Origin: a virus | Taxonomy: Duplodnaviria; Heunggongvirae; Uroviricota; Caudoviricetes | Strand: one strand, 5' to 3' | IMG/VR virus record: IMGVR_UViG_2609459792_000012 | Length of the DNA: 5,264 nt | Shown here: piece after piece, positions 361 to 564 of the stretch | Position numbering within the stretch: position 1 is the stretch's first letter | Layout: each line of letters opens with the position of its first letter | Translations under genes and position numbers: made by a program | The notes under the pieces: generated by a model | Seen by the model: only the letters and a program-made list of their open reading frames with translations | Databases searched by the model: none | Told to the model about the DNA's origin: nothing

Positions 361-383
361 AAAAAAAGCCGCTCTTGAGCGGC
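361..383 (-). terminator. Rho-independent terminator directly downstream of the tRNA-Leu 3' fragment
   Basis: Inverted repeat gccgct (368-373) / agcggc (378-383) with 4-nt loop; on the minus strand the hairpin is followed by a run of seven T (A-run 361-367 on +). It sits 17 nt past the CCA end of the tRNA fragment. Confidence 0.6.
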
Positions 384-400
384 TCGATTTGCATACGGTG

Positions 401-431
401 TGGTGCCGAAGGCCGGACTCGAACCGGCACG
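401..431 (-). other. 3'-terminal 31 nt of a tRNA-Leu (leuX-type) gene ending CCA; integration core (att) site, not an intact tRNA
   Basis: Minus-strand sequence CGTGCCGGTTCGAGTCCGGCCTTCGGCACCA contains a T-stem/loop (GCCGG-TTCGAGT-CCGGC), the 3' acceptor strand CTTCGGC, discriminator A and CCA. It matches the 3' end of E. coli leuX as I recall it. No complementary 5' acceptor strand (GCCGAAG) or D/anticodon arms are found in the 90 nt upstream on that strand, so the gene is partial. Confidence 0.65.
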
Positions 432-564
432 GGTTATAGCGACATAGCTTGCTTCAACAATCATCGTTAACTTGTTGAACTAGCTAGATTAAAGCTCATA
501 ACCCCGGCACATTTCACAGACTGTTTAGCCATGAAAAAGCCCCGACAACATAACCGGGGTTTGT

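What the first reader, a model, noticed from the sequence alone, without database searches (positions are those of the whole stretch)
361..564. Element boundary: tRNA-Leu 3' fragment plus terminator next to int marks an att junction
The 31-nt core (401-431, minus strand) reproduces the T-arm and acceptor end of a leuX-type tRNA-Leu but lacks the 5' two-thirds of the gene. The host-type terminator follows on the 3' side and integrase and phage genes lie on the 5' side. This is the arrangement expected for attR (P arm-core-B') of a prophage integrated into tRNA-Leu, or for attP of a free element. It fixes the left boundary of the element at about 431/432.
Basis: partly seen in the sequence, partly recalled or inferred. 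Interest (0 to 1): 0.55.

Follow-up and report, generated by a model that had tools for sequence, protein, structure and literature searches.

The report
leuX attachment junction of a mobile island
The 31-base tRNA-Leu piece is the scar left where a 14.7-kb mobile island, probably a phage satellite rather than a full prophage, inserted into the leuX tRNA gene; this is an ordinary, well-understood kind of junction.

Summary
Window 401-431 (minus strand) equals the last 31 nt of the 85-nt leuX tRNA-Leu(CAA) gene. No complete tRNA is present. An intrinsic terminator (366-385, T-run 359-365) follows the fragment, and a tyrosine integrase gene starts 134 bp to its right.

- On the window's own contig, a second exact copy of the 31-mer lies 14,730 bp away, inside an intact tRNA-Leu(CAA).
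- E. coli Ec1119 has the empty site: hsdR, the same terminator, intact leuX, then ahr.
- Thirty-six junctions with at least seven unrelated left flanks all share the same right-hand arm.
- A sister lineage at thrW keeps both arms but carries a 30-nt tRNA-Thr cassette in the same register.

Three corrections apply:
- The element is too small and gene-poor to be a prophage. It looks like a satellite.
- The left flank is not core chromosome. It belongs to the resident leuX defence island (type I restriction-modification system).
- Position 431/432 is the end of the identity block, not a mapped crossover point.

The "attP of a free element" alternative is excluded. This is an ordinary kind of feature involving an uncharacterised integrase lineage.

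The parts
1..176 (+). 3' end of hsdR (type I restriction enzyme R subunit). It is part of the resident leuX-anchored defence island and lies outside the inserted element.
   Evidence: The called gene L003 6496-9612 equals window ...-176 and carries HSDR_N, ResIII and EcoR124_C domains. It is annotated HsdR in E2348/69, LD22-1 and Ec1119.
243..400 (-). B' arm: the sequence that lay directly downstream of leuX before the insertion. It is homologous to the leuX-intB spacer of K-12-type islands.
   Evidence: Window 176-431 is 98.8% identical to the stretch from hsdR to intact leuX in Ec1119. Window 243-431 is 79% identical to K-12 DNA ending inside leuX.
359..385 (-). Intrinsic terminator of leuX (stem-loop 366-385, T-run 359-365), displaced from the gene by the insertion.
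   Evidence: Pattern scan. Fold energy -19.4 kcal/mol, z = -3.1. K-12-type and Enterobacter flanks carry a terminator at the same place with a different but still complementary stem.
401..431 (-). Displaced 3' fragment of leuX tRNA-Leu(CAA), nt 55-85. It is the att core and the int-proximal copy of the 31-bp direct repeat.
   Evidence: Exact match to leuX. The second copy is at L011 64-94 inside the intact tRNA. There is no tRNA call at the fragment itself.
432..564 (.). P arm of the element's attachment site and the integrase gene's upstream region. Positions 487-564 are almost invariant. It contains the inverted repeat 453-460/472-479 and the hairpin 540-559, which abuts the int start codon.
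   Evidence: The same arm adjoins the core in 36 junctions with at least 7 different left flanks. It is conserved in the thrW-integrated relative. Repeats. Fold z = -2.9.
565..1779 (+). Tyrosine integrase, 404 aa, transcribed away from the att core.
   Evidence: Pfam Phage_integrase 7e-18, with DUF6538 just below its cut-off. phrog_1 integrase 7e-38. Catalytic motifs present. The identical protein occurs on at least 24 contigs. No detectable similarity to K-12 IntB.
1780..2574 (-). Variable cargo slot of the element. Here it holds a 162-aa ORF (1799-2287) of unknown function.
   Evidence: This is the only part of the window not matched in E2348/69 or LD22-1. Other strains carry AbiTii, YafO or a restriction-modification system at this position. 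The ORF matches phrog_15367 and has no PADLOC hit.
2575..5224 (-). Conserved element genes: endonuclease VII-like (2575-3003), two unknowns (2976-3323 and 3277-3684), HNH endonuclease (3703-4212) and major capsid protein (4229-5224).
   Evidence: Pfam and PHROGs hits. The capsid protein is 56% identical to the major capsid protein of Autographiviridae phage Lidtsur.

Best explanation
Window 361-564 is the integrase-proximal junction (P arm-core-B', 'attR' when read in the direction of the tRNA) of a 14.7-kb integrative element inserted in leuX, the tRNA-Leu(CAA) gene.

How it works. The element's circular form carries an attP site made of three parts: a P' arm, a roughly 30-nt copy of the tRNA's 3' end (T-arm, 3' acceptor strand, discriminator, CCA), and a P arm that is followed by int. 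The element's tyrosine integrase recombines this copy with the identical stretch of leuX. After integration the tRNA gene is rebuilt at the far end of the element. The gene's former 3' end, with the terminator and flank that followed it, is left as a 31-nt fragment next to int.

What is shown: the direct repeat, the intact tRNA at the far end, the empty site, and the constancy of the P arm against many different flanks.

What is inferred:
- Strand exchange lies in the T-loop or the T-stem/acceptor junction part of the core, not at 431/432.
- The N-terminal domain of the integrase binds sites in the conserved arms.
- The element is a phage satellite rather than a prophage.
For: - The window is 100% identical to GCA_031231945.1 contig DAPHHW010000003.1, which is 263,870 bp long.
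- On that contig the 31-mer occurs twice in the same orientation, 14,730 bp apart. One copy is the window's fragment. The other forms the 3' end of an intact tRNA-Leu(CAA) called by ARAGORN and by Rfam at 59 bits.
- Three-way comparison. The Ec1119 empty site matches the window's left flank up to the core and the tRNA body after it. The window junction is that left flank, the core, then the P arm. The far-end junction is the P' arm, the core, then the tRNA body. Identity is exactly 31 bp.
- E2348/69 and LD22-1 (92-93% identical) have the same layout with about 15 kb between the copies and ahr beyond the tRNA.
- Nearly identical elements (99.9-100% over 4.86 kb) sit next to unrelated left flanks, and homology starts at window position 401-403.
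- Thirty-six junctions from isolates, IMG/VR and metagenomes, including Enterobacter and Kluyvera, show at least 7 flank types but one P arm.
- A relative whose integrase is 82% identical at protein level sits at thrW. It has a 30-nt tRNA-Thr direct repeat in the same register and homologous P and P' arms.
- The integrase is full length with its catalytic motifs.
- The principle that a regenerated tDNA plus its displaced 3' fragment mark island ends is established (PMC4383910).
Against: - No excised circle or attP junction was found in IMG/VR or in JGI metagenome contigs, so present-day mobility is not shown directly.
- No excisionase was identified.
- In 10 of the 36 junctions the leftmost 8 nt of the fragment are altered, usually by the same 1-nt deletion. 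This is unexplained and could mean some copies can no longer excise.
- The invariance of positions 409-431 in the metagenome set was imposed by the search pattern, so it cannot be used to place the crossover.
Confidence: 0.94

Rival explanations
1. The window shows the attP of a free (excised or virion) element, so the left flank would be element or phage DNA.
For: The hsdR 3' end (window 1-175) is 91% identical to hsdR genes carried by phages vB_EcoM-673R5 and phi456.
Against: The source contig is 263,870 bp, with hsdMSR and other chromosomal genes to the left and the rest of the element, leuX and (in relatives) ahr to the right. The phage hits cover only the hsdR coding sequence. The far end of the element has a different arm (P') next to its own core copy. 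Searches for a P'-core-P junction found nothing.
Confidence: 0.01
2. The fragment belongs to the left-hand (hsdR) island, or is a decayed tRNA pseudogene, and lies next to an unrelated integrase gene by coincidence.
For: The B' flank (243-400) is homologous to the leuX-proximal end of K-12-type leuX islands. The leuX locus accumulates islands in tandem.
Against: In Ec1119 the hsdR island abuts an intact leuX, so the split arose when the int-bearing element arrived. The P arm and int follow the core in all 36 junctions whatever lies to the left. The thrW relative repeats the arrangement with a different tRNA.
Confidence: 0.02
3. The junction is real, but the element is a decayed remnant of a full-size T7-like temperate prophage, not an intact small mobile element or satellite.
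For: Only a few virion-type genes are present: capsid, a scaffold-like protein and a weak small-terminase-like protein. Some copies have a disrupted int.
Against: Size and gene order (14.7-15.1 kb) are the same in E. coli lineages that differ by 7-8% and in the thrW lineage. The parts of the Enterobacter and Kluyvera copies that were retrieved match the window at 90-94%. Direct repeats are perfect, and the identical integrase sits beside unrelated flanks. No larger relative carrying portal or tail genes appeared among the phage records.
Confidence: 0.08

Closest known systems
tDNA-integrated genomic islands as defined by Islander (Hudson, Lau and Williams 2015, PMC4383910). [quoted passage not shown]
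   Same: A tyrosine integrase sits beside one end. A displaced 3' tDNA fragment in the same orientation as the regenerated gene marks the ends. The identity block runs from just 5' of the T-stem to the tRNA's 3' end. Changing the core cassette retargets the element to another tRNA: this was shown experimentally for Ms6 and is seen naturally here as leuX versus thrW.
   Different: The integrase lineage differs: a Phage_integrase domain with an N-terminus matching DUF6538 just below cut-off, and no homologue above 27% identity among deposited phages. The crossover has not been mapped. The element is not a phage.
Satellite phage P4 and P4-type islands at leuX (K-12 KpLE2 with intB; PAI II of strain 536).
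   Same: The same target gene, leuX, and the same end of the gene. The two types are found in tandem at the locus (L007, L013; at thrW, L139). That P4 itself integrates in leuX is from my own knowledge (Pierson and Kahn 1987) and was not checked here.
   Different: This integrase shows no detectable similarity to IntB (BLASTP E = 1.4) and lacks the Arm-DNA-bind_3 and Phage_int_M domains. In K-12, intB lies next to the intact tRNA; here int lies next to the displaced fragment. No psu, delta or sid genes were found.
Capsid-forming PICIs and other phage satellites (SatelliteFinder families: P4-like, PICI, cfPICI, PLE).
   Same: The size is 10-18 kb. It integrates site-specifically, carries its own capsid gene and variable defence-type cargo slots, and lacks tail genes.
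   Different: No portal, protease, head-tail connector or large terminase was found, and no alpA or pri-rep genes. The capsid protein is of the Autographiviridae (Bonnellvirus) type, whose known members in the phage collection searched here are 40-43 kb phages (the Lidtsur record lists no integrase). Dependence on a helper phage is untested.

Membership tests
tDNA-integrated island junction (Islander criteria) | A tDNA fragment identical to part of a tRNA gene on the same replicon, in the same orientation | tested here: met
   The 31-mer occurs at L011 64-94 (inside the tRNA) and at 14794-14824 (the window's fragment), on the same strand.
tDNA-integrated island junction (Islander criteria) | A regenerated, intact tRNA gene at the other end | tested here: met
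   ARAGORN calls tRNA-Leu(CAA) at L011 10-94 and Rfam scores it 59.4 bits. Its sequence is identical to K-12 leuX.
tDNA-integrated island junction (Islander criteria) | An integrase gene inside the interval | tested here: met
   int at window 565-1779 matches Pfam PF00589 at 7e-18 and has the catalytic motifs.
tDNA-integrated island junction (Islander criteria) | An unoccupied site in a related genome that is collinear with both flanks | tested here: met
   Ec1119 has hsdR, terminator, intact leuX and ahr. It is 98.8% identical to window 176-431.
tDNA-integrated island junction (Islander criteria) | Excision to a circle carrying attP | tested here: inconclusive
   No P'-core-P junction was found in IMG/VR or metagenome contigs. 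Absence from assemblies does not exclude excision.
P4-type integrase islands at leuX | Integrase of the P4 family (Arm-DNA-bind_3 plus Phage_int_M plus catalytic domain) | tested here: not met
   Neither domain is found in the Pfam scan. BLASTP against K-12 IntB gives E = 1.4.
Complete temperate tailed prophage | Portal, large terminase, tail and lysis genes; genome usually above 30 kb | tested here: not met
   There are 14,699 bp between the core copies and 20 genes. The largest are a helicase (614 aa), int (404 aa) and the capsid protein (331 aa). No portal, large terminase or tail hits were found.
cf-PICI satellites | A full capsid-plus-packaging module (capsid, protease, portal, connectors, small terminase, HNH) | tested here: not met
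   Only a capsid protein, a scaffold-like protein, a weak small-terminase-like protein and an HNH endonuclease were detected.
Phage satellite (generic) | Induction by, and packaging into particles of, a helper phage | not testable with these tools
   Only gene content is suggestive: the capsid protein is 56% identical to that of Bonnellvirus Lidtsur, and there is a weak small-terminase match.

The most novel reading that the evidence does not exclude
The element bounded by this junction may belong to an undescribed family of enterobacterial phage satellites. Its proposed properties:
- It builds its own Autographiviridae-type (Bonnellvirus/phiKMV-like) capsid from its own capsid and scaffold genes and parasitises virulent podoviruses.
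- It carries defence cargo in two slots.
- Its attP consists of conserved arms around an exchangeable 30-nt tRNA cassette (leuX or thrW).
- It stacks in tandem with P4-like satellites at the main E. coli defence hotspot.
Probability: 0.3. Interest if true: 0.7.

Novelty: new member of a known kind. Interest (0 to 1): 0.3.

Why it matters
For the finding itself, it delimits one mobile element exactly. The element is 14,699 bp plus one core copy. It occurs in about 1% of complete E. coli genomes (56 hold most of the P arm plus int query, 78 hold any match, of 5,426), and copies occur in Enterobacter and Kluyvera.

It also shows that the leuX defence hotspot grows by insertions stacked next to the tRNA gene. 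Each newcomer pushes the older island, and the old tRNA 3' end with its terminator, outward.

The wider interest lies in the element rather than the junction. Most leuX hotspot islands have no recognised means of mobilisation (PMC10121019). A small island with an Autographiviridae-type capsid gene and a retargetable tRNA cassette would be a candidate vehicle for moving defence genes.

Tried and rejected
It mostly returned native tRNA genes of Acidobacteriota and other MAGs. Only Enterobacter sp. ECC-219 and Kluyvera ascorbata were relevant.
- Searches for the predicted attP junction (P'-core-P) in viral and metagenome contigs found nothing. The three IMG/VR contigs that contain the int-proximal junction are integrated copies, not circles.
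- The only Rfam hit at relaxed threshold was BjrC1505 (E = 0.69, 21.8 bits against a gathering score of 50), driven by the terminator and T-arm hairpins. I rejected it as chance.
- ORFs 318-464 (minus strand, 48 aa) and 531-803 (plus strand, 90 aa) overlap the tRNA fragment, the arm and int. I treated them as spurious.
- No further degenerate core copy was found within 20 kb to the left in E2348/69, so the hsdR island has no recognisable repeat of its own there.
- I considered a crossover at the extreme left of the core (401-407), with the 1-nt deletion travelling with the element. This is disfavoured: the altered 8-mer follows the flank subtype, not the P-arm variant.
- A 10-nt motif, GGCTTTTTCA, occurs inverted in the P' and P arms and is conserved in the thrW lineage. 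It is a candidate arm site, but a single pair is within chance.
- Six literature searches for a described satellite family of this type found none. This is not proof of novelty.
- Williams 2002 (PMC100330) is not held in the library.

Full report
**1. Observation**

Window 401-431 reads TGGTGCCGAAGGCCGGACTCGAACCGGCACG. Its reverse complement is nt 55-85 of the 85-nt leuX tRNA-Leu(CAA) gene. That gene sequence is the same in K-12 ER3413 (L010 3156-3240, annotated tRNA-Leu) and on the window's own contig (L011 10-94). The block comprises 3 nt of the variable arm, the T-arm, the 3' acceptor strand, the discriminator base and CCA. The 5' 54 nt are absent.

- The pattern occurs once in the window even with 3 mismatches allowed, and in none of 200 shuffles.
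- ARAGORN finds no tRNA in the window. Rfam reports no tRNA at E<=1.
- On the tRNA's 3' side there is an 8-bp/4-nt hairpin (366-385, minus strand) followed by seven T. Its energy is -19.4 kcal/mol, z = -3.1.
- On the other side, after 133 bp, a 404-aa tyrosine integrase gene starts at 565. It matches Pfam Phage_integrase at 7e-18, and the R, K, HxxR, H and Y motifs are present.

**2. Where the window comes from, and the second copy**

The integrase protein is found unchanged on at least 24 contigs. The window is 100% identical to NCBI assembly GCA_031231945.1, contig DAPHHW010000003.1, which is 263,870 bp long.

A look-up with the capsid protein retrieved the same contig out to 10 kb beyond the window (L011). 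There the 31-mer occurs twice on one strand. One copy is at 14794-14824, which is the window's fragment. The other is at 64-94, where it forms the 3' end of an intact tRNA-Leu(CAA) at 10-94. Rfam at gathering score calls only that intact gene, at 59.4 bits.

The spacing is 14,730 bp, with 14,699 bp between the copies. E. coli E2348/69 and LD22-1, which are 92-93% identical to the window, have the same layout. Their order is hsdR, terminator, fragment, int, about 15 kb of element, intact leuX, then ahr.

**3. Empty site and three-way comparison**

Searching with window 176-445 found strains in which the match (to window 176-431) lies under both 'HsdR' and 'tRNA-Leu' annotations. In Ec1119 the order is hsdR, terminator, intact leuX, ahr, with nothing in between.

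Printed side by side:

| Junction | Left of core | Right of core |
|---|---|---|
| Ec1119 (empty site) | window-type flank | tRNA body |
| Window | same flank | ggttatagcg... (P arm) |
| Far end of element | ...aatttaatgact (P' arm) | tRNA body |

Identity among the three is exactly the 31 bp. This is the pattern expected of site-specific integration into a tRNA gene. The regenerated gene and its displaced 3' fragment mark the ends of the island (principle in PMC4383910).

**4. The arm is constant and the flank is not**

Elements that are 99.9-100% identical to the window over 4.86 kb lie beside unrelated left flanks. Homology begins at window position 401-403.

I collected 36 int-proximal junctions from the relatives, IMG/VR and 24 metagenome contigs. 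They fall into at least seven left-flank types:
- the hsdR terminator;
- a K-12-type terminator followed by a P4-type integrase;
- two other P4-type island ends;
- a ScoMcrA-like coding sequence that abuts the fragment;
- Enterobacter;
- Kluyvera.

The sequence to the right of the core is always the same P arm, in two close variants.

A more distant relative in strain N18-04097 has an integrase 82% identical at protein level. It is inserted at thrW, beside a P4-like satellite. Its direct repeat is the last 30 nt of tRNA-Thr, in the same register (2 nt 5' of the T-stem through CCA). Both of its arms are homologous to those of the leuX element.

So the attP of this family is a conserved P' arm, an exchangeable tRNA cassette of about 30 nt, and a conserved P arm. 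In the leuX type, the 31st identical base is probably a base that the arm happens to share with the tRNA. Retargeting by changing the core has an experimental precedent in phage Ms6 (PMC1762012).

**5. What the flank is**

It is not core genome, however.

- leuX anchors E. coli defence hotspot #37, where type I restriction-modification and other defence systems cluster (PMC12707154; PMC10121019).
- Window 243-400 is 79% identical to the spacer between leuX and the P4-type intB gene in K-12.
- K-12-type and Enterobacter flanks have a terminator at the same position whose stem sequence differs but remains complementary. This supports a working terminator rather than a chance hairpin.

The new element therefore inserted between leuX and an older island. 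It pushed that island, and the tRNA's previous 3' end and terminator, outward. The rebuilt leuX now runs into the P' arm, where no terminator-like site is found.

**6. Where the boundary really is**

Element-specific DNA begins at 432. Strand exchange must lie inside 401-431, and sequence alone does not place it.

The anatomy matches Islander's 'T-stem region' class, which pools crossovers in the T-loop with those at the T-stem/acceptor junction. The leuX and thrW cores share TGGTGCCGA and GGAnTCGAACC and differ between and beyond these blocks. This fits either of two models:
- a T-loop overlap flanked by the T-stem arms;
- an overlap at 410-415 flanked by the two shared blocks.

In 10 of the 36 junctions the leftmost 8 nt are altered, usually by loss of one C (TGGTGC-G). 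This occurs in at least five flank types. The allele follows the flank subtype rather than the P-arm variant, which suggests that positions 401-408 are on the B' side of the crossover. Why the same deletion recurs is unexplained. The constancy of 409-431 in the metagenome set was imposed by my search pattern and carries no weight.

**7. What the element is**

The element is not a prophage. It has 20 genes, and none is large enough to be a portal, large terminase or tail protein. Its recognisable genes are:
- a major capsid protein 56% identical to that of Bonnellvirus Lidtsur and related 40-43 kb Autographiviridae phages;
- a scaffold-like protein (phrog_1018, 7e-7);
- a 68-aa protein with weak matches to T7-type small terminase (PF11123 at 3e-4, below cut-off; tblastn to the Lidtsur small terminase at 0.008);
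- an endonuclease VII-like protein and an HNH endonuclease;
- a DEAD-box helicase and a serine invertase.

It also has two cargo slots.
- Next to int, the window carries a 162-aa unknown ORF. Other strains carry AbiTii, YafO or a restriction-modification system there.
- Next to the tRNA, the window's contig carries a DUF3800 protein that matches PADLOC candidate PDC-M04A. The thrW relative carries a TIR-domain protein there.

The P arm plus integrase gene is found in 78 of 5,426 complete E. coli genomes, 56 of which hold most of it. This gene content suggests a phage satellite. It does not meet the marker sets of P4-like, PICI or cf-PICI satellites. I found no description of such a family in the held literature. 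Helper dependence is untested.

**8. Verdict**

Three corrections apply: the element is satellite-like rather than a prophage; the flank is an older leuX defence island; and 431/432 is the end of the identity block rather than a mapped crossover.

As a kind of feature it is textbook, and it involves an uncharacterised integrase lineage. That lineage has no detectable similarity to the P4-type IntB that also uses leuX, and its best match among deposited phages is 27% identical. Direct evidence of present-day excision is lacking.

Noticed in passing
window 1780-5224; whole element L011 95-14793: The element is 14.7 kb with 20 genes and no ORF large enough for a portal, large terminase or tail protein. 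It carries a capsid protein 56% identical to that of Bonnellvirus Lidtsur (Autographiviridae), a scaffold-like protein and a weak T7-type small-terminase-like 68-aa protein. This looks like an undescribed satellite of virulent podoviruses.
   Followed up: partly
window 1780-2575: A variable cargo slot lies between int and the endonuclease VII gene. Here it holds a 162-aa ORF (phrog_15367, no PADLOC hit). Other E. coli strains carry AbiTii, a YafO toxin or a methyltransferase plus restriction enzyme at the same position.
   Followed up: partly
window 401-408, and the equivalent positions in L002, L004, L005, L089, L144, L145, L147, L160, L162, L163: The leftmost 8 nt of the displaced fragment carry the same 1-nt deletion (TGGTGCCG to TGGTGC-G) in at least five unrelated flank types. 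In the ScoMcrA-type flank the sequence reads TGAGTGCG, and its TGA is the stop codon of the neighbouring gene. The recurrence is unexplained.
   Followed up: partly
L139 (E. coli N18-04097) 17970-33128: A sister lineage of the element sits at thrW (tRNA-Thr) with a 30-nt direct repeat and homologous arms. It lies in tandem with a P4-like satellite that carries a SIR2 gene, and it has a TIR-domain cargo gene at its tRNA-proximal end.
   Followed up: partly
window 487-564: This part of the P arm is almost invariant across seven diverged copies, including the thrW lineage, and is more conserved than the int coding sequence. The arm folds better than all 200 shuffles (z = -2.9). The hairpin at 540-559 abuts the int start codon and may cover its ribosome-binding site.
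   Followed up: partly
L011 95-300 (P' arm, downstream of the rebuilt leuX): Integration removes leuX's own terminator. No terminator-like site or stable fold is found in the element DNA that now follows the tRNA gene.
   Followed up: partly
window 1-176 and 177-234: The 3' end of hsdR is 91% identical at nucleotide level to hsdR genes of phages vB_EcoM-673R5 and phi456. A 27-nt imperfect inverted repeat directly follows the stop codon.
   Followed up: no
L011 3550-4812: A 1.26-kb stretch without called genes lies between the serine invertase and the helicase genes, and E2348/69 has one too. It has no strong repeats and no Rfam family. It could hold an origin of replication or a packaging site.
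   Followed up: partly
L012 13446-14710; L013 13446-14897: In some otherwise near-identical copies the integrase gene is split into two ORFs (L012) or is not called at all (L013). These copies may be immobilised.
   Followed up: no
window 2976-3735: The two small minus-strand genes (115 and 135 aa, no family hits) overlap each other. A 164-aa plus-strand ORF lies antisense to them. Gene callers disagree among contigs on which ORF is real.
   Followed up: no
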